Of a DNA stretch of 64,000 nt, positions 2,676 to 58,157 are shown one piece after another (the first letter of the stretch is position 1; every line of letters begins with the position of its first letter). Position numbers and translations under genes: made by a program. A model generated the notes under the pieces. That model had not been told where the DNA came from, made no database searches, and was given only the letters and a program-made list of their open reading frames with translations. Source of the DNA: Octopus sinensis (lineage: Eukaryota). The DNA lies in NCBI RefSeq assembly GCF_006345805.1, contig NC_043001.1:26288001-26352000 (forward strand), read 5' to 3'.

Positions 2676-2872
2676 ACATACATACATACATATGTGCATA
2701 TGTGACCCACACACAGTGACCTACACACACGTGCACTAACAAATAAAAAGAACGCAGCTCAGATAATGGACAGAGTCAATGACTATTGGAAAGGTTGCAA
2801 GACGCAACAAAAAATTTAGTAAAATAAATAAGTAAATGAGTGGAAACTTTACCAGTGAGTGTGTTAAATAAT

Positions 2873-3200
2873 CATCATCATCATCGTTTAGCGTCCACTT
2901 TCCATGCTAGCATGGGTTGGATGGTTCGACTGGGGTCTGGGAAGCCAGAAGGCTGCACCAGGCCCAGTCTGATCTGGCAATGTTTCTACAGCTGGATGCC
3001 CTTCCTAACGCCAACCACTCCGTGAGTGTAGTGGGTGCTTTTTACGTGCCACCGGCACAGGTGCCAGACGAGGCTGGCAAACAGCCATGATCGGATGGTG
3101 CTTTTTACGTGCCACCGGCATGGGGGCCAGGCAAGGCTGGCAACGGCCAAGATCGGATGGTGCTTTTTACGTGCCACCGGCACAAGGCCAGCCGAGGCCA
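2873..3200 (-). mobile_element. Family A non-autonomous retroposon (RTE-type tail, tandem modules)
   Basis: (CAT)n-CGTTTAGCGTCCACTTTCCATGCTAGCATGGG tail and three GGTGCTTTTTACGTGCCACCGGCA modules; interrupts the right arm of the palindrome. Confidence 0.9.
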
Positions 3201-4112: not shown

Positions 4113-4225
4113 ATAATGATGACTGAGTCTCAATGCCTGTGAATCAGTGTGAAGACAGAATAAAAATAGAAAATAACCAGTAACATCATCCACCAGGAAT
4201 AATTATTTTCCTTGTACAATAAAAA

Positions 4226-4490
4226 TCATCATTCATCATCATCATCATCGTTTAATGTCTGCTTTCCATGCTAGCATGGGTTGGACGATTTTGACTGAGG
4301 GCTGGTGAACCAGATGGCTGCACCAGGCTCCAATCTTGATCTGGCAGGGTTTCTACAGCTGGATGCCCTTCCTAATGCCAACCACTCCGAGAGTGTAGTG
4401 GATGCTTTTTATGTGCCACCGGCACAGGGGCAACGACCTCGCTCGAATCCTTTTACACATGCCCCCAGCACAGGTGCCAGTAAGGCGAAT
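4226..4490 (-). mobile_element. Family A retroposon
   Basis: (CAT)n tail, CTGGATGCCCTTCCTAATGCCAACC core and a module. Confidence 0.9.
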
Positions 4491-4769: not shown

Positions 4770-7150
4770 GTTAAGAGTAAATGCTTATATGACAATGTAT
4801 ACAGAGGTCATGGCTAAGGCACATAGAATAGAAATGGATTGAGGCTCTGGGATCTAACCATTTGCAATACTGACTCAAAAAAACTGGCCTGCCACCTAAT
4901 CAGCTACCATTCAAGTGAACATGCAAACTAGACAGATATCATGCTCATCAAGAAACAGATTAGACAGTTGGTTGTGAATATCAAGGTTTTTCCTCAGTGA
5001 AGTATGTGCCTCTCAACATAAATTAGTAATTAGTGACATCAGAGTAAGAGCTAGAGACCCAGAGAAATGAGAAGGAAGATACAGAAACAATTGAAAGATC
5101 CTTCAACTGCACATAAATTCAAAGCAGTACAAGCTGATACATATGTGGAGAAGGAGGAGGAGTTACTTACAACATGGAAGAGAAACTGAGAGTTTTTACA
5201 AGACAATTTGCTGCAAACCAGATCTGTGGATAGTGCAAAGTTCTATCAGAGAGAAGGTGACATTGTGGTGGAATAGTATAGTTGAGCCATAAAAGCTCAG
5301 AGACAGGCTCATGAAGAATGAGAAAAAATAGGAAGAAAGAACAATATACCTGGTAACTAGAAGAGATGCTAAATGTCAGGTACACTTAGAAATGGATTTA
5401 AGAGGTTTGCAAGTGTGACATGAATGATGAGAAGCTTGGAGTATTTCAGATTGCAAAGCAGTGAATTAGTATCAATCAGATGTTGTGGGTGGCACCAAAA
5501 AGAATGAATTGTGGAAATGTTATGATACTAAATGAGAAAAATGCTCAAGAGAGTGAAGGATTAATCAAAAGAAAATCTAACAGAGGGATCAGCTACTGAA
5601 AGTAACATTGAAATGTTTGAAATAGCCATTAAGGATATGAGAGCAGAGAAAGCATCTAAACCACTTGGGAAAAATACTGAAAACATCCCACAGAGTAGGG
5701 TACACACGAGCCTTGCCTAGTCAATAAGATAGCATAGGAAGTGGTCATCCCCAATGATTAGAGCAGTAGCATTATCAACCATTACAAGCGCAAACAAGAT
5801 GCTCTATAAAGAAGCAACTACATATGCATTAAATTGATGGAGCAAGTTATAAAAGAAACAGAAAGAGTTATAGCAAAATAATCAGGAAGAAAATTAGCTT
5901 AGTTATATATGGCTTGAGTTCATGCCAAAATGTGGTACAATTGATGCTGTCTTCTTAGTGAAATAAGTACAGAAGTCCTGAACAAAAAGCAAGACATTAT
6001 TTGTTTTGATAGAGAAAGTCTTTGACAGAGCACTGTGCTCTGAGATTGAAAGTGGCTAAGAAAACTAGATGCTTTTGAAAACCAAGCAAACCATCTAATG
6101 AAATATTGTCAGCAAGATGCGAGTTAGTAATGAGAAGTTTAGTGTAAAGATAGGTGTACACCAGGGCTCAGCTCTCGGCCCTTCTTATTTATTGTAGTCC
6201 TCCAAGCTATAACAGAAATTTTTACTATTAGCTTTCCATGGAAATTTCAGTGTACCAATAGCTTAGTTTTCACAGCTAAATCTGTGAAAAGATTGAAGAA
6301 ATTTTGAATGTGGAGGCAAGAAGTCTTAAAGTAAACCTAGCAAAGTCAGAGATTTTAGTGATCAAGAAAGAAAGCAGGACTTTATTGCCATCTGGGAAGT
6401 GGTTATACTCAATATGCAAAAACGGGGGGAAGATAAACATGGATAAAAGATGCAGCTGTATCACAAGCAGGCTAACAGATAAAAAGTAATTAGGAATAAA
6501 AACACCCATAAAATAAATTTTTTCAAATATTCGGCAGGTACCATGGAATAGTTAATAGCTTCTGTTACCTAGGTGTCATAATTAGAAATAAAGGAGTGTG
6601 TTCCAAAAGCACAGTAGCTAGAGTAAGAATAAGATAGCAAAAATTCATGGAGCTGTTATCTCTACTGACAACAAATGGATCCTTTATCCAAGTGAAAGGC
6701 AGATTGTAAGAGGCTTGTGTAGAAAGTGCAATGTTACCCTAGCATTGAATAAGAAGGATTTGCAAAGACTGGAAACAAATAAGCAGAGCATGCTCGCTGA
6801 ATCTACACTGTTGGTGTATATGAATGACAAAGTACAAACAAGATGAGAGAAAAAATTTAATATATGTAAGAGATTCAGATGCAGTGAGCAAAAGAGGAAA
6901 CTTTGCTAGTACAGACATGTGATACACATACTGAGAATGACAGTTGAATAAAGAAGTTCCAAATGAACTAAGGAAGTTGCAGAAGAGGAAGATTAAAGAA
7001 GACATAAAAAGAAGTGGTGAAAGATGATGACAGGAGGCTGAACCTCATAAAAGATATGACAAAGAACCACAAAGAGTGAGATACTGTGCAGGAGGAGACC
7101 TATACAACCTATGCAAGCATAAAAAAAGAAACATATAAAATGATGATGAA
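4770..7150 (+). mobile_element. Decayed RTE-clade LINE (APE C-terminus plus reverse transcriptase)
   Basis: Frame-broken remnants include CNTDSKK..HLISY (APE), IKLMEQVIKETERVIA, FMP..GTIDAVFLV, EKVFDR and IGVHQGSALG; ends in CCTATGCAAGCAT...AAATGATGATG. Many stops and frameshifts. Confidence 0.85.
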
Positions 7151-9940: not shown

Positions 9941-10768
9941 TGTAGTAATCTTTCTTTATATCTATCATATTATTTTTTACACTAACTCCTATAATTTCAC
10001 TTATGTAGCACTAATTAGGTCCTATGGGTAACAGAAATTGTTTACTACATGTTGTGAACCATCTGAACAGCTCATGGATTTACTTGTAAATGCTGAAAAC
10101 TATGATGTAAGTAAATAAGCAAAAATAATAGATGCTGTGCTTTCAGAATAATAGACCTACATCCTTGATTGGAATCTTTCTTTAAATTGTTTGTTTATGT
10201 TTTGGAAGCATTTTCAATACTAATTTATAGTTTTCAAAATCCTATTATATGTAGTTTATTCTTAGAAAATTCAATAATTCAAAATCAAATGGTGATAGAT
10301 TTGTTTGTAGTTTATGATAGCAATTCAATATTGATCTAGTCTACAATTATCAGCAGAAAGATGCTTTTATCCCTTTCAATTGATTAGATCAAAGCAATAA
10401 GTTTGAGTCAAAATTTTATTTAAACACATTTGTTAGATAATATTAAGTGAGTTCTTTCTATTAAAAAGGATAAAAATTTGGACTAAAAAGTTAAATGATA
10501 TAATGAAGATCAAGGAAAAGCTATTTCCTTTTGTTTTTAACAAACTTTATGCCATATTTTATCTGAAATTTACTAGTATCAAACTGCGTAAATTCTCTGC
10601 ATGCTTGCTTGATCAACTAGAAATGGTAGACAAGTAACCCCTGAATCACACAAGTCAATCTCAAATAAAAATGGATGGAGCTTCTATGAGGCTGCTCAAG
10701 CTTCAAGAAACAGTAACTAAAATCTCTCACAAATCATACCCTACTGTTTTTAATAATATATATATATA

Positions 10769-11033
10769 TCATCATCATCATCATCGTTTAGCGTCCGTTT
10801 TCCATGCTAGCATGGGTTGGACGGTTCTACTGGGGTCTGTGAAGCCAGAAGGCTTCATCAGGCCCAGTCAAATCTGGCAGTGTTTCTACGGCTGGATGCC
10901 CTTCCTAACGCCAACCACTCCGTGAGTGTAGTGGGTGCTTTTTACGTGCAACCCGCACTGGTGCCAGACAGAGCTGGCAAACGGCCACGAACGGATGGTG
11001 CTTTTTATGTGCCACCGGCACGAGGGCCAGGCG
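10769..11033 (-). mobile_element. Family A retroposon in a (TA)n tract
   Basis: (CAT)n tail and two modules. Confidence 0.9.
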
Positions 11034-11034
11034 A

Positions 11035-11952: not shown

Positions 11953-13020
11953 AGAATCATGGCATTTATTTCTAAGCTTGACATATAATACTGCAGCTTA
12001 TGTTTTATGATAATTCTTTAGAAATTGTGAGTTAGTAGTTGAAACATTTACACCTATAAGTGCTGAGATAGAGATGTGATTTGAAACTAATTAAATTACA
12101 AATAAAATACAAGAAAATTTTAGTAGCAAGCAAACTTTATAGCAACTCAAATTGCTGGAAATAAAACCAACTTATTCTTGGTATCATGAATGGGATTATC
12201 AAAACATTATACTTTTTTTACAACAGAATTAGAATTTGATTCCAAATATAAATTAACATTATTACATATAATTGTAATTCTATAATTTCACAAATAACAA
12301 ATGAAGAGAATAGTTAGAGAGATTGCTTCATAACGTTCTCATTAAAGGACAGATATATAAAAGATGTTAGTAGGATATTTTCATTTTTTGAAATTTAAAC
12401 CAAAACTTAATCAATCATTTAACTTTTTCTCTGAATATTTCCATCAATTATACATCTAACCTAGACATACAAAATATCTGATAATGAAGGAAGCTGTTAC
12501 TATTATAATAATCAAATTTTTTAACACAAAACAGTTGGTTGATTTCTCACACAACCAACAGTTTCGTTATTTTCAAAGAAAGTTCTTGTTTAAATTAAAA
12601 GCTGAAGTTTTTCAGCACTAACAATGAAATATCACATCACATAATAATTAAAATAATCCCATATTTGATTAAATTTTAATTGCAATCATTCTTGTTGCAT
12701 GACATCTCCAAATTAGCAATCACTGACAACACCAAAATGTATTCTAGATCTTCATAGGAGATGAAAACAAAAATTGTCTTTGTAGTATAGGATATTAGAC
12801 ATGATACTCAGAGCTGCTTGATGCCAGTTCAAACTGAAAGTATGCACAAATGAATTTATAAATAGAAATGTATTTAATAATTATAATTTCTAAATGGATT
12901 ATTAGTAGAATTGAATAAACAAAATTCATGAAGTACAGTGAATGGAATCACTAACAGCTATGAAAACTGGGTTACAGGATTGCTGAAAACAGAGTGACAA
13001 AAGGGTCTCATATGTGTAAT

Positions 13021-13440
13021 CACCATCATCATTGTTTAACGTCCGCTTTCCATGCTGGCATGGGTTGGACAATTCGAGTGGGGTCTGGGAAGCCAGGAGG
13101 CTGCACCAGGCTCCAGTCTGATCTGGTAGTGTTTCTACAGCTGGATGCCCTTCCTAACGCCAACCATTCCATGAGTGTAGTGGGTGCTTTTTATGTGCCG
13201 CTGGCACAGGGGCCAGGGTAGGTTGGCAAACGGCCATGATCAGTTGGTGGTTTTACGTGTCACCGACACAGACGCCAGTCAGGCGGCACTGGCAACTGCC
13301 ACGTTCAGATGGTGCTTTTAACGTGTCACTGGCACGAGTATCTTAACTACAATTTCCATTTGATTTTCATTTTGATGTTGGTGTTAACGTACTTGACTCA
13401 ATAGGTCTCCTCTAGAACAGCGGGTTACTCTATGATCCAA
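13021..13440 (-). mobile_element. Family A retroposon with extended 5' part
   Basis: Tail, three modules, and a GTACTTGACTCAATAGGTCTCC block shared with the copy at 36.5 kb. Confidence 0.9.
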
Positions 13441-15179: not shown

Positions 15180-15540
15180 TACTGCTGTTACGTTGTGAGT
15201 TCAAATTCCGCTGAGGTCGACTTTGCCTTTCATCCTTTCGGGGTCGATAAATTAAGTACCAGTAACGCACTGGAGTCGATGTAATCGATTTAATCCCTTT
15301 GTCAGTCCTTGTTTCTCCCTTCTGTGTTTAGCCCCTTGTGGGTAGTAAAGAAATAGGTATTTCGTCTGCCGCTACGTTCTTGAGTTCAAATTCCGCCAAG
15401 GTCAACTTTGCCTTTCATCCTTTCGGGGTTGATAAATTAAGTACCAGTAACGCACTGGAGTTGATGTAATCAATTTGATCCCTTTGTCTGTCCTTGTTTG
15501 TCCCCTCTATGTTTAGCCCCTTGTGGGTAATAAAGAAATA
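15180..15540 (+). mobile_element. Tandem dimer of SINE family C
   Basis: Two TGAGTTCAAATTCCGC...GGGTARTAAAGAAATA units joined at AAAGAAATA|GGTATTTCGTC (~15356). Confidence 0.9.
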
Positions 15541-18378: not shown

Positions 18379-18889
18379 GGTGAGGAGGAGGGGGAGGGAG
18401 GGGGGGAAATGCATGTGTGTGTAAGAGATCATTTTAAAGTCCACTTTTCTATGTTTGCATGGTGCAGATGAAGCCCATTGAATCACATTTTCTACAACTG
18501 GATGTCCTTCCTGTCGCCAACCTTCACCTGTTTTCACACCAGACAATATTTCCCTGTGGCTGGACATGTTTTCACAAAAGGTTCAAAAAGAATGAGTCTT
18601 CTTGTATGATGGTGACACTCATTTGCAACTATTGCACAATATTGAAGGAACGCACATGCATATTCATCATACAGGTTTCTTTCAGTTTCTGTCAACCAAA
18701 TCTACTCAAAAGACTTTTTGTCAAACAGGGCTATAAATGAAGACAATTGTCCAAGGTGCCACGTAGTAGGCATGGAGTGAACCACATTGTTGTGAATTGA
18801 ACTTCTCAACCACAAAGCTGTATTTGAACCTAAATTTACGTGGAGAATCGGGGTGTATATTTATAATGGGATAATCTTACCACTTTTGG

Positions 18890-19643: not shown

Positions 19644-20274
19644 GAATTGCACTTGCCATATGGAAATGGTTTCCTTCATCTTTATTAAAAATGTATTGAC
19701 ATATCATATACATTAATAGTAATCTTACTACTGTTACCACAAATAATAATAGTCATTTCTTTTGTAGCCACAGGGGCCTTATACATGCATACAAAACATT
19801 TTATAGAAAATTATTACAAACAAAAATGTTGGAATTCTTCAGTTTGACTGAGCCAGTAAGGTTGAGGCTATGTACTGAAGCACACATACAATAAATGGGA
19901 AAAGGGGCAAAATCATAATACATAAAAACATATTTAAAATGTATGACAACATAAAATGAAAGTACTCATAAAGGATGGGAAATTCCAAACCACCGTCTGC
20001 TTTAGGTAGTTGTCTTTGTAATTATCAGGCAGATTCCAATAACTGGTCTTCTCATATGTATCAGCTTTGCTATTTATCTATGTTATGCTTCTTTTTTTAT
20101 ATCATAATTGATGAACAATAGCATCATTGGTTACAGATTTCCAATGGATTGGTCATTGATGCAATGTATTTCTGATTGCAAGTATGACAAGTGAATGTCC
20201 ACAACTGAATACAATATAACACTTTGTTTGAAAAGCTCTGGTATTTTTAGTTTTCTCACCAATGTTTACATCCT

Positions 20275-20531
20275 TGCTGGTGGTACGTAAAAAGCACCAA
20301 CTGATCATGGCCACTATCAGCCTCCTCTGGCACCTGTGCCGGTAGCACGTAAAAAGCACCCACTACACTCACGGAATGGTTGGCGTTAGGAAGGGCATCC
20401 AGCTGTAGAAATACTGCCAGATCAGACTAGAGCCTGGTGCAGCCTCCTGGCTTCCCAGACCCCGGTTGAACCATCCAATCTGTACTAGCACGGAAAACAG
20501 ACGTTAAACAATGATGATGATGATGATGATG
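20275..20531 (+). mobile_element. Family A retroposon
   Basis: Two modules, GGTTGGCGTTAGGAAGGGCATCCAG core, (GAT)n tail. Confidence 0.9.
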
Positions 20532-20699
20532 ACTGAAGTACATCAGTGAAAACACACATACACATTATGTGCTCTCAAATTTCACAATCCTTGATCAGTC
20601 TGAGCTTATGGTAAAAGATACTTGCTGAGTTACCATACAATGAGATCAATCTGGAACCATGTGATTGTGAAGAAACCCACATAATCATGCTACATCCAC

Positions 20700-28245: not shown

Positions 28246-28499
28246 TACCACCTTTTGTGAAGGTATTGCATGACAATTGATGACTCTCAGAATATATCTA
28301 GTTACATATTTAGACACAGTAACAAAATCAGAGCAAAAAATATCCAGAAAATGTATGCTTTTATAAAAGGGGTTTTATTTTAAGTACTGATATACTGATA
28401 TGCACATAAATTCACAGTAGTAGGTAAGTTCCCTGCCAACACTCCATCCCACCCTTGTGTTTATAATAATTTGGTTTCAGCCTTTAACCTTTACATGAA

Positions 28500-28813
28500 A
28501 TCGATCAAAAAATCAATGGAAATTGTAGTTGTGATACCAGTGCTGGTGGCACGTAAATAGCGCATCCGGTGGCACATAAAAAGCACCGACCAATCGTGGC
28601 CATTGCCAGCCTCGCCTGGCACCTGTGTCGGTGGCACGTAAAAAGCACCCACTACACACACGGAGTGATTGGTGTTAGGAAGGGCATCAAGCTATAGAAA
28701 CACTGCCAGATCAAATTGGAGCCTGGTGCAGCCTCCTGGCTTCCCAGACTTAGTCAAACCATCCAACCCATGCTAGCAAGGAAAACGGACGTTAAACTAT
28801 GATGATGATGATG
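28500..28813 (+). mobile_element. Family A retroposon
   Basis: Three modules and a (GAT)n tail. Confidence 0.9.
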
Positions 28814-29420
28814 TATTGGATGTTGCCTTATGTGATTACTGTTCATGACTTTGCTTGCAGTTACATTTAAAAAGAATAAAAACATTTAGCTGAAATAATT
28901 CTAATCATTGCCAATACCATCGAGCAAAGCCACAGAAACATAGATATCATAGCGACATTATGTTTCTCTAACCTTTGCCTGGAACACACACAACTACTTG
29001 AGCTTTTAAATTATCACCCTTGATTGACTGATGATATATAAGCAGCATCTGATGAGAATTAGGATTACAGCCAACCAATAAAGAATTGTACATACATGGT
29101 TTGCACACATGGAAGGCATGTAAACAGAAATTCATGGGACAGCATATCATCACAGGTGCTTTTGTTTCATAGCAGAATCAAATTCTGCTTAAACAGTCAT
29201 GCTTAAAATGCATGGCACCGTTAACATATATTTGTTGACAACCTTGATATATCTATATACTGCATAATAACTTGCTGTTGTATGTGTGTGCATACATGCA
29301 TGTATTTGTATATGTGTGTGTGTGTTAATGCATGTTGCCAGAGCAAGTGTAGGTAGATAAGTTACATGTGATTTTTCTATGTGCTTTTTTTTTTAATGAA
29401 TTACAATATTCAACAATGAA

Positions 29421-29727
29421 TCATCATCATCATCATCATCATCGTTTGATGTCCGCTTTCCATGCTAGCATGGGTTGGACGATTTTGACTGAGGGCTGGC
29501 AAACCAAATAGCTGCACCAGACTCCAATCTGATCAGGCAGAGTTTCTACAGCTGGATGCCCTTCCTAACGCCAACCATTCTGAGAGTGTAGTGGGTGCTT
29601 TTAAGTGCCACCGGCATGAGGGCCAGTCAGGCAGTACTGGCAACGGCCACACTCAAATGGTGCTTTTTATGTGCCACCTGCACAGGAGCCAGTCCAGCGG
29701 CATTGGCAACGACCTCGCTCGAATGTT
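29421..29727 (-). mobile_element. Family A retroposon
   Basis: (CAT)n tail and two modules. Confidence 0.9.
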
Positions 29728-30554
29728 TTGGAAAATATTTTACTATTTACCAATCTAATAAGTCTGTCTGAGTAAAAAGTGAACGTTTACTTCCCAAAAC
29801 ATTAGAAATATTCAACAACCAATATATTATGCTGTGTCTTGAGGCAAGAAGCAAAAATTTTCTTAAATAACTATAAACAGCTATAGCTTCAAAAGAGAAT
29901 TTTCTGTAGTATTGAAACAAAATTCTTCCAAGAAAGGTAAATAATTTACTTCTGATGTCCATCAAAAGAGAATTGTTTATTCAACTTGCCTGATAAAAAC
30001 CAATTGAGTGACTAATCATGTTAACAACAATTAACATAATTTTCTAAACAAACCTCATCTTTAGAATGTATGTGTGTACTATTTACACTATGTAGCTATA
30101 TGACATTTTAATTGATTCAATCTCTGGTTCTTATCAAATGTTTTATTTCTAGTTACAACCGTGATTCCAACTGAATTTGAACTAAGAACCTTTATTTTGA
30201 AAGTAAGGCTAGAAATACTCGTATCCACTAAATCACTGGCTGTTGCACTGCCTTTTAGAAATAAAATGTTTAGTTCAAATCCAGTCTCTGGTTATATACA
30301 TATCCAGAAATAGAAAACAGAAATAAAATCAAAATATAGTCTTGATATAAATATTGTAATACATACATTTAAAAATATATATTTCTAAGACCAGAAAATC
30401 ATAATCTTAACAACAAACCAATCTCAGGCATCTAGACAGTTAAATCTGTTGCTGTAAAGTGAGAGAGTGTAAGAAATATGCATTATATCCTGATAATAGC
30501 TTTTAGTTAAATTTTGAGTTTGTTTTTTCAGTTTTTACTTAAAATAAAACTTAC

Positions 30555-35510: not shown

Positions 35511-36424
35511 TTATTATTATTATTATTATTAATATTGTAATTTTAGGTATTTTTAGATTTATTTTTCACTAATAACAATTATATTGACCTTATATCAATG
35601 TTGGAGCTACTAGGTCAGTCACCAGCAATCGTTATATGTATTGCTTTTTTGATTTTTCTAGTTTTCCAGTGTGGTTATTTGTTCTTTATGGAAATTTCCT
35701 TCCATAGCAGCATATGATTTTATTTCTCATACCACATATATTTAACCATTTCCTGATTTTTATGTTTTTTCTCTCATTAAGGCTTTCTGATATTCTACTA
35801 TTCTGACCTTTAGGAGTCACATAATTTCTCTTTGACAAATATTCTAGATACATTTCTTATATCCTTTGTTACTCTTGGTGACATTACTGAAAGATAAATT
35901 TAATTAACCATTGCCCTTAATTTGGAAATAAAGAATAATAATTTGGGGCTGGTGTGGGCCCATGTATACTCATGTATACTTGTGACACCAACTGACAATG
36001 AGAGATGAAAATGAACTAGAAACCATTATTTCTAAACTAAAAGTAATAGTTACCCTTATAAGGGTTCCTAGCTTAAATTGTCTGAGACAATGCACTAATC
36101 TAGAAATAAAATACTGGAAGAGATATCTGATCAAAATAATAAATACTATAGGACATACACTCCTTAGAGGTTAATTAGACATAAAATTAAAGACATCAGT
36201 GCTTTTCATTTCTAATTAAAGGTTTCTAATTTGACTCCAGCTTGTGATGAATGGATATATTCTGGAATAAAGAATCTAATGATGATTGGAGATTGAACCA
36301 ATTGAATTAGTGTAAATATAAATAGATATTCTTGGAAAATATCACTTGAATAACAAATATTAAATATTAGGCATTTTGACACAAAGTCAATTTTTGTAGA
36401 GCAATAAAATAGTAAATAGAATTA

Positions 36425-36897
36425 CTGGAACCCAGCAGTTGCCAGTGCTGCCGGACTGACTCCTGTGCAGGTGGCAAGTAAAGAAACACCATTTTGACCC
36501 TGTGCTTTAGGAGACCTATTGAGTCAAGTACATCAACATCAAAAATCATTGGAAATTGTAGTTGTGATCCCTGTGCTGGTGGCACATAAAAAGCACCATC
36601 TGAACGTGGCCGATGCCAGCGCTGCCTTGACTGGCTTCCGTGCCGGTGGCATGTAAAAGGCACCAACCGATTGTGGCCGTTGCCAGCCTCGCCTGGCATC
36701 TGTGCCGGTGGCACATAAAAAGCACCCACTACACTCACAGAGTGGTTGGTGTTAGGAAGGGCATCCAGCTGTAGAAACACTGCCAGATCAGACTGGAGCC
36801 TGGTGCAGCCTTCTGGCTTCCCAGACCCCAGTCGAACTGTCCAACCCATGCTAGCATGGAAAACAGACTTTAAACGATGATGATGATGATGATGATG
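36425..36897 (+). mobile_element. Family A retroposon, long copy (four modules)
   Basis: Modules at ~36464, 36572, 36639 and 36701; (GAT)n tail. Confidence 0.9.
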
Positions 36898-37420
36898 AAT
36901 TAATTCCAGGTAAAGTGAAGTGAACTTAGGCAGGATTGGAACTAAATTGGAATGAAAAAAAAAAGAAGAAAATTTAATACTTTTGGTTCAATCCTTATGT
37001 TCTTGAACTAAGTATAGGAAGCTCATGTGTGCATGAGGGATCAATGGATGTGTTCAAACTAAGTAGTCTTAACTAATCGAAAGAAATATTTACAGAATTC
37101 CATTATTTTACATATCAACTAGCCATAAGTTTGCTCCCCAACCAAAAAAGTAATGTTTCTGTTTATTTTTTATTATCAAGTAACAAAGTCACTGTTTCAA
37201 AACAAAAATGTAATTATGTATTTTTGGACATACAAGTCAAATGTCTGAAACCAAAATTTACAGCCCCCAAAAAATGATAAATCAGTCAACTTATGCATGA
37301 AGATGACTTAGGAGGACCAAAAATTCTATGTGAAATGCAGCAGGATTTGGAAAGACAGTGACAATGTTTGAATGTTTCCATTATGTACTACAACAACTTG
37401 TATACTGGAAAATAGGTATA

Positions 37421-39051: not shown

Positions 39052-39205
39052 ATCATCATCATCATCATCATCATTTAATGTCCACTTTCCATGCTGGCAT
39101 GGGTTAGATGGCTTTTGACAGGAACTGGTAAGCCAGGGAGCTGCACCAGGTTCCAGTCTGATTTGGCATGGTTTCTATAGCTGGATGACCTTCCTAACAC
39201 CAACC
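39052..39205 (-). mobile_element. Truncated family A retroposon
   Basis: (CAT)n tail plus core only. Confidence 0.8.
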
Positions 39206-39212
39206 ACGCACG

Positions 39213-46734: not shown

Positions 46735-46769
<35 letters not shown>

Positions 46770-47250
46770 TCATAATCATCATCATCATCGTTTAACATCC
46801 ACTTTCCATGCTAGCATGGGTTGGACGATTTGACTGAGGTCTGGTGAACCAGATGGCTGCACCAGACTCCAATCTGATCTGGCAGAGTTTCTACAGCTTG
46901 ATGCCCTTCCTAATGCCAACCACTCCAAGAGTGTAGTGGGTTCTTTTATGTGCCACCAGCACAAGGGCCAGTCAGGCGGTACTGGCAACGGCCATGCTCA
47001 AATGGTGCTTTTTATGTGCCACCTGCACAAGAGCCAGTCCAACGGCACTGGCAACGACCTTGCTCAAATGTTTTTTTCATGTGCCACCAGTACAAGTGCC
47101 AGTAAGGCAACGCAGATAACGATCACGCTCGAATGGTGTTTTTTACGTGCCATCGGCACAGAGGCCAGCTTGTTGCTCTGGCAACGGTCACGCTCGGATG
47201 GTACTCTTAGCACTCCACTAGCATGGATGCCAGTCATCAAATTTGATTTG

Positions 47251-48549: not shown

Positions 48550-50265
48550 TTTAGTAAAATGTGTTGATGGCCATCTCAACTTCTCCAAAACTTTTTAATT
48601 CTGTGCTATGCAAACAACTTATGGCAAAGCTTTCTGCAATGGGTGTGAAGGCTAATCTTCATAACTAGTTGAAATTCTTCATTCTTGGTTGAAAAGAGAT
48701 AGTCAACATCCTGCATCCTATTTGATGACATCTGGAATCCTGCAGGGTAATGTTCTTAGTCTGCCCTCTGTTGTTTGTTGCATATAGTCTTGAAATCAAT
48801 GCCAACTTGAAGTATATTTACTGTGTTTAAAAACATAGGTGTCTTGCACTAAAAAGAATGGATCCTGGGTGCTACAGGTCTTCCCTGCAATCTAACCTAG
48901 ATACAATGCAACAAGGGATTATTAAATGGCAACTCATGATGGCTGTAGACAAGTAGGATCTTTTCGGTTTGAACGGCAGTTTTTTCTAGCGGTGTCATAT
49001 GAAATTGTCATCCATAATTATGACCCTAGTATCGATCTATTGCATTTCAATCTGTTTTAGGGTTAGGGTTAGAGTTAGGGTTAGTTAGGGTTGGTTAGGG
49101 TTAGGGTTAGGGGTGGGGGGAAGGGTATCTTTTTTTCTTCACAAATGGAAATAAACCCAATCTGTTTCTTAAACGAGGGGCATATTCATACGGCACAGAA
49201 TGCTTTCACCTCAATAGACGTCATTGATTGGTTGAAATTGCAGAAATTGCAGAAATTGAAGGAAAAAAACAACAAATATCTTACAAACTATAGAATTTTC
49301 TCAATAAAGCCAAGAGAAAAAGATGTTTTATAAACACATTCTACTAGTATACAAAGTTTAAAAGTGTTTAGTTACGTGGAAATTATTTTGAAAAACTGCC
49401 GGTCAAACCGAAAAGATCCGACAAGTACACCACAATAACATTCTGAGAGAAAAAAAACCTGGAATTTACCTACTCCTTCCACAACACAATCTTAAGAATG
49501 GATGTGAATGAGGCATTATTGTTTGTGGTCTGCATTGGACAAACCTCACTTCTAAAACTGTCAAGAAGGCTGCAGGTGTCAAACATCATTCAGTCAGACC
49601 TTTGTCAGATGCTCACCAGCTATCTATTTAAAGATACATATGGCTATGGAATGTCCACACAGTTTACATCTCTAGTCTGGGACCACCCCAACTCTTTCTC
49701 AGAATATAAATCAAGAGACATGCTGCCAGACAAATACCTTCCACCGGCCACTACATCTTGAATGTCTTGCTTTTCTGGGCATCAACACACTAAATCTTTG
49801 ATTCTTAGTAACTGAGTTGGTAGAAGCCCACAAGATCGTCCTGTCTTTCCAACAACAACCTTGATCATCTTTTTTAATTCAATATCTCTGCCACTCATGG
49901 ATACACTTACAAAACAAAGCAAAAAAAAAGCACACAACACCCATGACTTTTGGAAACATTTTTCATACTCAGAATTGCTGAAGCATGTAACCAAGTACCA
50001 GCATCAGTTGTTAGTTGACAAGACTGTGCATCCTTGAAAAATTGCCTGCTTCCCAAAATTTACCAACATTGTACACCCCTTTGTTTTTGTGGCTCTTTTA
50101 ATCTTCCTTTTTCTGTTTTCCCATGTTTTATCCTGTATGTTATGCTATTTTTGAATGCAACTGCTGTCTTTCTGTCTTTGACTTACTGCTGTTTTCGGTT
50201 CCCTCTTTTACTCTTTTCTGAAGAATTGTAGTGCACCTGAACACTGTCTACAATAAGCATATTAT
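48550..50265 (+). mobile_element. Decayed CR1-like LINE (RT region to 3' end)
   Basis: VDGHLNFSKTF.NSV..KQLMAKLSAMGV, TSGILQGNVL..PLLFVAY, LQSNLDTMQQ..KWQLMMAVDK, QFTSLVWD; ends in an (ATT)n tail. Confidence 0.75.
48956..49419. mobile_element. MITE with 29-bp TIRs, 8-bp TSD and internal (TTAGGG)n
   Basis: TSD GACAAGTA (48948-48955, 49420-49427); TIRs GGATCTTTTCGGTTTGAACGGCAGTTTTT / AAAAACTGCCGGTCAAACCGAAAAGATCC. Confidence 0.95.
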
Positions 50266-50289: not shown

Positions 50290-50570
50290 CATCATCATCA
50301 TCATCATCATCATTGTTTAACGTCCGTTCTCCATGCTAGCATGGGTTGGACGGTTCGACCGGGGATCTGGGAAGCCAGAAGGCTGCACCAGACTCCAGTC
50401 TGATCTGGCAGTGTTTCTACAGCTGAATGCCCTTCCGAACGCCAACCACTCCGTGAGTGTAGTGGGTGCTTTTTACGTGCCACCGGCACAGGTGCCAGAC
50501 GAGGCTGGCAACGGCCACAATCGGATTGGTGCATTTTACATGCCACCGGTACGGAAGCCAGTCAAGGCAA
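50290..50570 (-). mobile_element. Family A retroposon in an (ATT)n tract
   Basis: (CAT)n tail and two modules. Confidence 0.9.
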
Positions 50571-50573
50571 GTC

Positions 50574-54809: not shown

Positions 54810-55676
54810 GCATACTCTGTAGAGTGGTTGGTGATAGGAAGGGCATCCAGCATAGAAACTAAACCAACAGTGGAATGTACAAGTAAAACAGTCTCCAATC
54901 CATCTAAGAGAACTAACTTCTGAATAAGAATTCACTAAGACTGTCATGACACAATCAGCCAGTCTAGCATGAAAAATCATCATCATTATCATCAACATTT
55001 AACGTCTGCTTTCTATGCTGGCATGGGTTGGATGGTTTGACAGGAACTGGTGAGGCCAGGGGCCATACCAGGTTCCATAATCTGTTTTGATTTGATTTCT
55101 ATGGCTGGGTGCCTTTCCTAGCGTCAACCACTTTACAGAGGGCACTGGGTGCTTTTTACATGGCACCATCACCAGTGCTTTTTGCATGAAAAATCAAGTA
55201 TAAAATAATGTCAATGACAATGATGATGCTGTATTCATCAATGGCTATTCGACCCATTGAACAAATAAAATGATAGGCAAAACATTTGACTTTGTTTGCC
55301 TTTGATATACATTTCTTTTAACGAACTCGGCCGTTGCCAGCACCGCCCCGACTGGCCTCTGAGCTGGTGGCACGTAAAAAGCACCATCCAATTGTGGCTG
55401 TTGCCAGCCTCGTCTGGCCTCTGAGCTGGTGGCACGTAAAAAGCATCAACCAATCGTGGCCATTGCCAGCCTCCTCTGGCCTTTGTGCTGGTGGCACATA
55501 AAAAGCACCCACTACACTCACGGAGTGGTTGGCGTTAGGAAGGGCATTCAGCTGTAGAAACATGCCAGATCAGACTGGGCCTGGTGCAGCCTTCTGGCTT
55601 CCCAGACCCCAGTTGAACCGTCCGACCCATGCTAGCATGGAAAGCAGACATTAAACGATGATGATGATGATGATGA
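54810..55676. mobile_element. Cluster of three family A copies (+ 54810-54975, - 54978-55185, + 55320-55676)
   Basis: GGAAGGGCATCCAG cores and CAT/GAT tails. Confidence 0.8.
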
Positions 55677-57911: not shown

Positions 57912-58157
57912 AAAGCACCATCCGATCGTGGCCGTTTGCCAGCCTCGTCTGGCACCTGTGTCGGTGGCACGTAAAAAGCACCCACAACACTCATGGAGTG
58001 GTTGGCGTTAGGAAGGGCATCCAGCCGTAGAAACATTGCCAGATCAGACTGGGCCTGGTGCAGCCTTCTGGCTTCTCAGACCCCAGTTGAACCGTCCAAC
58101 CCATGCCAGCATGGAAAGCGGACGCTAAACGATGATGATGATGATTGATGATGATGA
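57912..58157 (+). mobile_element. Family A retroposon
   Basis: Module, core and (GAT)n tail. Confidence 0.9.

What the first reader, a model, noticed from the sequence alone, without database searches (positions are those of the whole stretch)
36460..36730. Headless RTE-partner retroposon carrying tandem compact H-type pseudoknot modules
Seen: about 20 family A copies occur in the window. None shows a tRNA head, and most carry 1-5 repeats of a ~60-nt module, YGTGC-N-GGTG-GCACR-TAAAAAG-CACC, followed by a GCCAG/CTGGC hairpin. This can fold as an H-type pseudoknot: stem 1 YGTGC/GCACR, 1-nt loop N, stem 2 GGTG/CACC, and an A-rich linker. N varies (C at 36701ff, T at 36572ff, A at 36464ff and ~29680), as expected if unpaired; a simple GTGCC/GGCAC hairpin would need it fixed. 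The array lies just upstream of GGTTGGCGTTAGGAAGGGCATCCAG. From recall, similar motifs occur in RTE 5' UTRs downstream of twister ribozymes. Inference: a repeated structured RNA replacing a Pol III head or ribozyme, for example an exonuclease block, processing signal or RT pause site. I know of no description of this structure.
Basis: partly seen in the sequence, partly recalled or inferred. Interest (0 to 1): 0.75.

Follow-up and report, generated by a model that had tools for sequence, protein, structure and literature searches.

The report
Knot-like RNA module in retrotransposon tail
These repeats are cut-off tail ends of a common protein-coding jumping gene (an RTE LINE, likely from an octopus), not a headless short element; the tail holds copies of a conserved 26-base module that could fold as a tiny RNA knot and likely helps the element's own enzyme handle its RNA, which is untested.

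Summary
The modules are real, but family A is not a headless SINE. The window's 13 copies are ordinary 5'-truncated insertions. The last module is kept across RTE families 36-61% identical at the protein's C-terminus whose UTR bodies are unrelated, so it looks selected; upstream copies decay and likely arose by slippage. The pseudoknot is possible but unproven. In young subfamilies stems stay intact while N and loop 3 vary. There is no significant covariation, hairpin rivals are as stable, and N=T is CpG decay. 5' ends do not pile up at modules, Rfam finds no ribozyme, and a tRNA-headed SINE shares the tail without the module. Closest working analogue: the R2 3'-UTR pseudoknot bound during target-primed reverse transcription. 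The scan noted this module three times before on other DNA.

The parts
36421..36898 (+). 5'-truncated copy of an RTE LINE: 3' UTR only, about 480 nt; no target-site duplication found
36464..36490 (+). degenerate upstream unit (stem 1 mismatch, 8-nt loop 3)
36572..36597 (+). module core 1 (N=T, consistent with CpG decay)
36615..36635 (+). spacer hairpin arms GCCAG/CTGGC (predicted)
36639..36664 (+). module core 2 (2 mismatches to the pattern)
36681..36698 (+). 6-bp spacer hairpin (predicted)
36701..36726 (+). terminal module core, the one conserved across RTE families; pseudoknot or hairpin
36732..36744 (+). small hairpin CACTC/GAGTG, kept with varying loop in all families examined
36744..36785 (+). 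anchor motif, RTE 5'-UTR sequence in relatives
36790..36833 (+). long predicted stem-loop before the terminus (36730-36875 folds at z -2.41)
36834..36875 (+). RTE 3'-terminal sequence, also ending L286's upstream element and L291; its last part is shared with the tRNA-headed SINE
36876..36898 (+). (GAT)n tail
2865..3198 (-). other family A 3' fragment (3 modules)
4225..4431 (-). other family A 3' fragment
10762..11034 (-). other family A 3' fragment (terminal N=G)
13009..13380 (-). other family A 3' fragment
20271..20532 (+). other family A 3' fragment
28497..28813 (+). other family A 3' fragment
29420..29729 (-). other family A 3' fragment
39052..39207 (-). family A 3' fragment cut at the anchor (no module)
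46769..47227 (-). other family A 3' fragment
50291..50571 (-). other family A 3' fragment
55323..55676 (+). other family A 3' fragment (3 modules)
57912..58155 (+). other family A 3' fragment

Best explanation
The array is the 3' UTR of an autonomous single-ORF RTE LINE, and its last module is a conserved cis element that likely folds as a compact H-type pseudoknot and likely serves as an auxiliary handle for the element's own protein when it binds its RNA for target-primed reverse transcription. Shown: the LINE anatomy (ORF of about 1,040-1,055 aa with endonuclease, RT and a PHD-like finger; 420-800 nt from stop to anchor; (GAT)n tail); 5' truncation of the window copies; conservation of the terminal module across RTE families; decay of upstream units; and the downstream motif being 5'-UTR sequence in other RTEs. 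Inferred: an ancestor captured a bipartite (5'-UTR piece plus 3' end) tail behind its ORF; extra units arose by RT template slippage or unequal exchange and are mostly redundant; the fold is a pseudoknot; the protein binds it. The handle is not obligatory in trans.
For: 30 of 30 best loci for the ORF end carry module(s) and anchor downstream. Pfam finds RVT_1 and Exo_endo_phos above cut-off and PHD below it. Older families B, D, F and G keep a module right before the same hairpin and anchor. Copies of F, G, B and D reach an RTE ORF end 36-61% identical to family A, 74-1,030 nt upstream, through unrelated UTR bodies. All 17 young copies keep stem 2 at 4/4 and stem 1 at 4/5 or 5/5, while N is G, A or C and loop 3 is 6-7 nt. 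Across five subfamilies 1 of 16 stem columns varies, and that change is C-G to U-G. The junction base swaps partner: G pairs into stem 1 in family A, C pairs into stem 2 in the older families, so both stems stay possible with loop 2 = 0. Upstream units break stem 1 or stem 2 at master level. Precedent: the vertebrate R2 3'-UTR pseudoknot-hinge-stem is bound by the RT protein and compensatory mutants rescue activity (PMC11601368, passages); L2 proteins bind a 3' stem-loop (PMC4176376, abstract).
Against: There is no significant covariation for the pseudoknot: 1 double change, 323/500 shuffles; 0 among terminal modules. The core triplets never vary, which fits sequence-specific binding as well as pairing. 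A bulged extension of stem 2, exclusive with the pseudoknot, shows 3 double changes (2/500; I defined it after seeing the data, and one of the three is an alignment by-product) and is the nested minimum in G and D. With a recalled Dirks-Pierce penalty and no coaxial or tertiary terms, the pseudoknot roughly ties the hairpins in the isolated core and loses by 4-9 kcal/mol in context. A tRNA-headed SINE shares the anchor and tail without the module (0 of 22). A 15-nt deletion removes the 5' half of the terminal module in 14 of 29 ORF-anchored older copies, although upstream units remain. No binding or probing data exist.
Confidence: 0.4

Rival explanations
1. Same role (a cis element in the LINE 3' UTR), but a simple hairpin plus sequence-specific contacts: an extended stem-2 hairpin in older families and a stem-1 or stem-2 hairpin in family A, with no pseudoknot.
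For: Nested minimum-energy folds. Double changes G-C to U-A and C-G to U-A in the bulged stem-2 extension. With N=C, a 6-bp stem-1 hairpin is the minimum.
Against: No single hairpin is shared by all families; only the pseudoknot core is possible in all of them. Young subfamilies with N=A or G cannot form the 6-bp hairpin. The extension is broken in family A and has an A-A mismatch in F1.
Confidence: 0.25
2. The module is a passenger: it came with the captured tail and persists by linkage to the conserved anchor and terminus; the array is neutral slippage.
For: The SINE lacks it. The terminal module is often half-deleted: 4 of 41 unbiased and 16 of 70 selected copies, on several spacer backgrounds. 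Unit number runs from 1 to about 11. No covariation.
Against: It is retained almost unchanged across families whose UTR bodies were replaced and whose ORF ends differ by 40-60%. Changes at master level avoid the stems.
Confidence: 0.15
3. The module stabilises the LINE mRNA or aids its translation (3'-UTR stability element or cap-independent translation aid), unrelated to RT binding.
For: A Pol III SINE needs no translation and lacks it. It lies beside a motif that is 5'-UTR sequence in relatives.
Against: No direct evidence. It lies about 170 nt from the 3' end, and unstranded RNA-seq of a related organism shows no start or end peaks, a weak test.
Confidence: 0.12
4. One reading: a structured RNA that replaces a head or ribozyme and defines 5' ends (XRN1 block, self-cleavage, RT pause).
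For: It occupies the slot just before the anchor where hagfish RTE-2_EBu has a twister-like stretch. The recurrent 15-nt deletion could mark an RT jump. 5' ends are slightly enriched inside cores (22 core vs 17 spacer, p=0.049 uncorrected).
Against: The 5' ends of 94 copies spread from 16 to 647 nt before the anchor. Only 4 of 39 lie within 6 nt 5' of a core (p=0.78) and 1 of 39 within 6 nt 3' of one (p=0.26). No Rfam ribozyme or xrRNA match. Cleavage in the 3' UTR would separate the ORF from the priming end (inference).
Confidence: 0.08

Closest known systems
[quoted passage not shown]
   Same: Single ORF with APE-type endonuclease and RT, 5' truncation, microsatellite tail, and the same anchor motif.
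   Different: The anchor sits in the 3' UTR here, not the 5' UTR, and the 5' UTR has no Rfam ribozyme. RTE-2_OV is described with a 1,109-aa ORF and a mostly microsatellite 3' UTR (passages), so it is probably another family; sequences were not compared.
Bipartite RTE derivatives and RTE-tailed SINEs (Kojima 2018 PMC5786205; Kojima 2020 PMC7245038)
   Same: A 5'-UTR piece directly followed by the 3' terminus; hagfish SINE1-1 and SINE2-1/9/10 carry the same anchor; L291 has the anchor plus the same tail.
   Different: Here the bipartite block ends an autonomous, coding LINE and is preceded by a tandem module absent from those sequences.
A-clade R2 3'-UTR pseudoknot-hinge-stem (PMC11601368)
   Same: A pseudoknot-capable element near the 3' end of a non-LTR retrotransposon RNA, conserved across diverged UTRs, followed by a hairpin.
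   Different: Different clade (restriction-like endonuclease, site-specific); single copy within the last 65 nt; proven by cryo-EM and rescue. Here it lies about 170 nt from the end, is amplified and is unproven. No sequence homology was tested.
Nin/Deu SINE domain of gastropods (PMC4758252 supplement)
   Same: About 12 of 16 nt resemble the module's 3' half (by eye).
   Different: No matching stem-2 5' arm in the loop; too short to show homology.
Twister-P1 (RF03160) and pistol ribozymes
   Same: Twister occupies the same slot in hagfish RTE-2_EBu (by eye); pistol has a stem plus A-rich linker of similar geometry (recalled).
   Different: No Rfam match and no catalytic core motifs in the module region.

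Membership tests
RTE-clade LINE | single ORF with APE endonuclease and non-LTR RT | tested here: met
RTE-clade LINE | 5'-truncated copies ending in a short tandem-repeat tail | tested here: met
RTE-clade LINE | RT phylogeny places it in the RTE clade | not tested
   Clade assigned from architecture, recalled N- and C-terminal motifs, and the 5'-UTR motif shared with named RTEs; no tree built.
RTE-clade LINE | target-site duplications | tested here: inconclusive
   Simple exact-match searches found none convincing; flanks are microsatellite-rich.
SINE or headless non-autonomous retroposon | defined 5' end (Pol III head or fixed start) and no ORF upstream | tested here: not met
   5' ends are continuous from 16 to 647 nt; longer copies enter the ORF.
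Bipartite RTE tail | 5'-UTR-derived piece joined to the RTE 3' terminus | tested here: met
   The anchor matches the 5' UTR of L286 over about 42 nt and of hagfish RTEs; the tail matches L286's 3' end and L291.
Bipartite RTE tail | the module itself derives from a relative's 5' UTR | tested here: inconclusive
   No module in the 5' UTR of L286 (only a weak look-alike), of the two hagfish RTEs or of this family's own 5' UTRs. Few relatives were available.
H-type pseudoknot | two crossing stems with feasible loop lengths | tested here: met
   Stem 1 3-5 bp, loop 1 1-3 nt, stem 2 4-5 bp, loop 2 0, loop 3 5-8 nt in five family majorities; 17 of 17 young copies.
H-type pseudoknot | compensatory covariation in both stems | tested here: not met
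   the test has little power because the cores are invariant.
H-type pseudoknot | both stems form at once in solution | not testable with these tools
   Needs probing; energy estimates are marginal.
Known self-cleaving ribozymes and xrRNA families in Rfam | match to a family model | tested here: not met
Nin/Deu SINE domain | extended homology to the domain | tested here: inconclusive
   A short resemblance only; one supplement file each of PMC4758252 and PMC4824008 was not searchable.

The most novel reading that the evidence does not exclude
An RTE LINE lineage captured a 5'-UTR block at its 3' end and evolved there, independently of R2, a 26-nt pseudoknot that its own reverse transcriptase grips; family A stabilised it by a junction-base swap and multiplied it into arrays, giving the coding RNA an advantage over its module-less SINE parasite and helping the family reach very high copy number.
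Probability: 0.2. Interest if true: 0.62.

Novelty: new variant of a known kind. Interest (0 to 1): 0.36.

Why it matters
How RTE-clade proteins pick their RNA is little studied compared with L1, L2 and R2; searches listed no paper on a structured RTE 3'-UTR element. A 26-nt element conserved across diverged families, with natural variants and a partner SINE that lacks it, makes that question testable with short RNAs. It also shows an autonomous LINE ending in the bipartite 5'+3' block so far described, in the papers I read, for non-autonomous elements and SINEs. For annotation, these very abundant repeats (97 family A ends in 864 kb) are LINE fragments that can easily be mislabelled as SINEs.

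Tried and rejected
Rfam gave no gathering-level match in the window, in 5' ends or in relatives. E-value scans gave only miRNA, snoRNA or lncRNA models far below their cut-offs, plus one decayed twister-P1 (25 bits, cut-off 67) on another contig. ARAGORN found no tRNA in the window. Viral contigs held neither module nor anchor and no endonuclease relative. The metagenome scan gave one locus, anchor without module. Covariation among decayed genomic copies is uninformative. No listed holder was on record as RNA. Three raw RNA runs of a related organism were unstranded and showed no start or end peaks; this shows family-derived RNA but nothing on processing. Pistol and hammerhead resemblances are from recall and fail on missing core motifs. 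A paper search for the two motifs as text listed two papers unrelated by title. Target-site duplication searches were inconclusive. One search used a mis-indexed structure and is superseded. Whether any RTE in this genome keeps the anchor in its 5' UTR was tested only on fetched loci: 0 of 448 anchors led into an endonuclease start other than one separate adjacent copy, and 1 of 30 5' regions held an anchor, itself a separate tailed copy. A genome-wide test remains open.

Full report
Observation. At the given place three cores lie at 36572, 36639 and 36701, a degenerate unit at 36464, then a small hairpin, the anchor, a long stem-loop, a 3'-terminal sequence and (GAT)n. The window has 13 family A 3' ends, not about 20. 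Rfam and ARAGORN find nothing.

What family A is. Searching the own genome with the copy and reading upstream showed that longer copies run into an open frame ending like an RTE protein (the C-terminal motif is recalled). All 30 best loci for that ORF end carry modules and the anchor downstream. Walking 5' gave endonuclease, RT and PHD-like domains and a 5' UTR of roughly 650-950 nt to the start codon region, without module, anchor or Rfam match. I fetched 18 loci chosen for long open frames's list. In 864 kb of contiguous DNA around the window and two other places there are 97 family A ends. The 5' ends of 94 mappable copies spread from 16 to 647 nt before the anchor, median 172, and 4 exceed 430 nt. 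This is ordinary LINE 5' truncation. The organism is likely an octopus (inference from the repeat families and from earlier scan notes).

Origin of the tail. In the supplement of PMC7245038 (passages) the anchor lies in the 5' UTR of hagfish RTE-2_EBu, behind a twister-like stretch judged by eye, in RTE-4_EBu, and in bipartite SINE tails. L286, an RTE fragment within a named MAG contig and likely animal contamination, has the anchor about 240 nt before an endonuclease start 55% identical to family A's. An upstream RTE end on the same contig has a short 3' UTR with a similar terminus but no anchor or module. L291 has the anchor directly followed by the same terminus. So the end of this LINE has the layout of a bipartite RTE derivative as described by Kojima (PMC5786205, parts 2-4 of 5 read). 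I infer capture by template switch or recombination. An earlier scan note says relatives keep the module once in front of the gene; I could not confirm this: L286 shows only a weak look-alike.

Conservation. Older families (my labels B, D, F, G) keep at least one module just before the same hairpin and anchor. Some of their copies reach an RTE ORF end: 3 of 30 F loci at 930-1,030 nt (33-61% identity; two more at 472 and 767 nt), 3 of 30 G loci at 560-960 nt (36-44%), and B and D copies at 74-157 nt (51-59%); most copies are too short to tell. Their UTR bodies are unrelated to family A's. In family A's young subfamilies the terminal module always keeps stem 2 (4/4) and stem 1 (4/5 in 9, 5/5 in 8), read by distance from the anchor without filtering (17 of 17). 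N is G, A or C, and the end of loop 3 varies. Over five subfamilies 1 of 16 stem columns varies against 4 of 5 loop or outer columns; I picked those five after seeing the data and left out the invariant UAAAA. Upstream units break stem 1 or stem 2 at master level (that scan required an intact GGTG, and further degenerate units are visible). Contigs and reads from three other coded organisms differ inside the module, at 8% or more, only at N, CpG sites, the outer position and loop-3 length (reads at least 88% alike).

The fold. Among 390 decayed family-A-type modules there is no covariation, and N=T is explained by CpG decay. Among family representatives (real copies that I chose to match the family majority) the pseudoknot has 89-91% of cells paired but only 1 and 0 double changes, no better than shuffles. 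In favour: the junction base is G in family A, pairing into stem 1, and C in older families, pairing into stem 2, and the outer stem-1 pair reads C-G, U-G, U-A or A-U in most types but mismatches in G, B, D and one young subfamily. Against: older families can extend stem 2 over a one-base bulge using loop 1, which excludes the pseudoknot and shows double changes (13/500 and 2/500 shuffles; defined post hoc, related sequences). With ViennaRNA stacks and a recalled Dirks-Pierce penalty, the isolated pseudoknot is within about 1-2 kcal/mol of the best hairpin in family A, slightly ahead for N=A, and 2-5 kcal/mol behind in D, F2 and G. In context it is 4-9 kcal/mol behind, without coaxial or triplex terms. 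Stem 2 forms in the nested context fold of all four young subfamilies. I put the pseudoknot at about even odds in family A and lower in the older families.

Function. 5' ends do not pile up at module edges: 4 of 39 lie within 6 nt upstream and 1 of 39 within 6 nt downstream. There is a marginal excess inside cores (22 vs 17, p=0.049 uncorrected) spread evenly over offsets 1-22; 55 further copies ended outside the regular array. This gives no support for an XRN1 block or RT roadblock. A SINE with a tRNA-like head (boxes judged by eye; head piece found in 7 of 22 copies) shares the anchor and terminus but has no module (0 of 22); if these RTEs mobilise it, the module is not required in trans. 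A 15-nt deletion between two 6-nt repeats removes the 5' half of the terminal module in 14 of 29 ORF-anchored older copies, with no diagnostic linked changes, and in 4 of 41 unbiased copies, on several spacer backgrounds. It points to recurrent RT jumps or dispensability when upstream units remain. The best reading is an auxiliary cis handle for the element's protein, by analogy with the R2 3'-UTR pseudoknot (PMC11601368, passages) and L2 stem-loops (PMC4176376, abstract), with extra units as redundant products of slippage. Binding is untested.

Novelty. RTE LINEs in octopus are known (PMC9115989 and PMC13282606, passages), as are bipartite RTE tails. Searches (listings) showed no description of this module or of a pseudoknot in an RTE 3' UTR. 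Repbase, subscription papers and two unreadable supplement files were not seen. The scan's own notes hold three earlier reports of the same module. Verdict: a real, conserved and apparently undescribed RNA motif in the 3' UTR of an ordinary kind of LINE, misread at first as a headless SINE; fold and function are open.

Noticed in passing
L332:3891-4022 (protein residues 780-823); L067: A PHD-like finger follows the RT domain in the ORF (Pfam E 1e-4 to 3e-4, below cut-off); already noted by the scan (e1-9883115).
   Followed up: no
G000, list: Dozens of copies have uninterrupted frames of 1,019-1,062 aa, and copies within a subfamily are 98-100% identical: very recent activity of at least four subfamilies.
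   Followed up: partly
window 18498-18522 (-) and upstream; L011, L140: A tRNA-headed SINE with a CORE/Ceph-like motif shares the RTE anchor and terminus but not the module.
   Followed up: partly
L195-L224 (family F): Family F carries a duplicated module-hairpin-anchor block (two anchors 100 nt apart); its second module differs at both outer stem-2 bases.
   Followed up: partly
L285:1485-1541 (-): A lone decayed twister-P1-like sequence (25 bits), the only match to a 23-nt twister motif in the genome at 2 mismatches.
   Followed up: partly
L286-L294: Likely animal RTE and SINE sequences inside named bacterial and archaeal MAG contigs (contamination); several carry a tRNA-like head before the anchor.
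   Followed up: partly
L252-L254 (G000:C26 about 24,428,560-24,430,510): About 14 tandem copies, period about 144 nt, of an old module-anchor piece: a local satellite.
   Followed up: no
L082, L088, L093, L098, L100: 5' UTRs differ strongly between subfamilies and hold internal duplications, like the 3' UTR; possible 5' switching.
   Followed up: no
window 15182-15540: A 185-nt tandem duplication of another SINE-like repeat.
   Followed up: no
window 49057-49112: An interstitial telomere-like (TTAGGG)n stretch.
   Followed up: no
window 6547-6737: Fragment of an older RTE ORF, about 70% identical to the young elements.
   Followed up: no
L072:1360-2258: Mariner-like transposase fragments near an RTE copy (translation; motifs recalled).
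   Followed up: no
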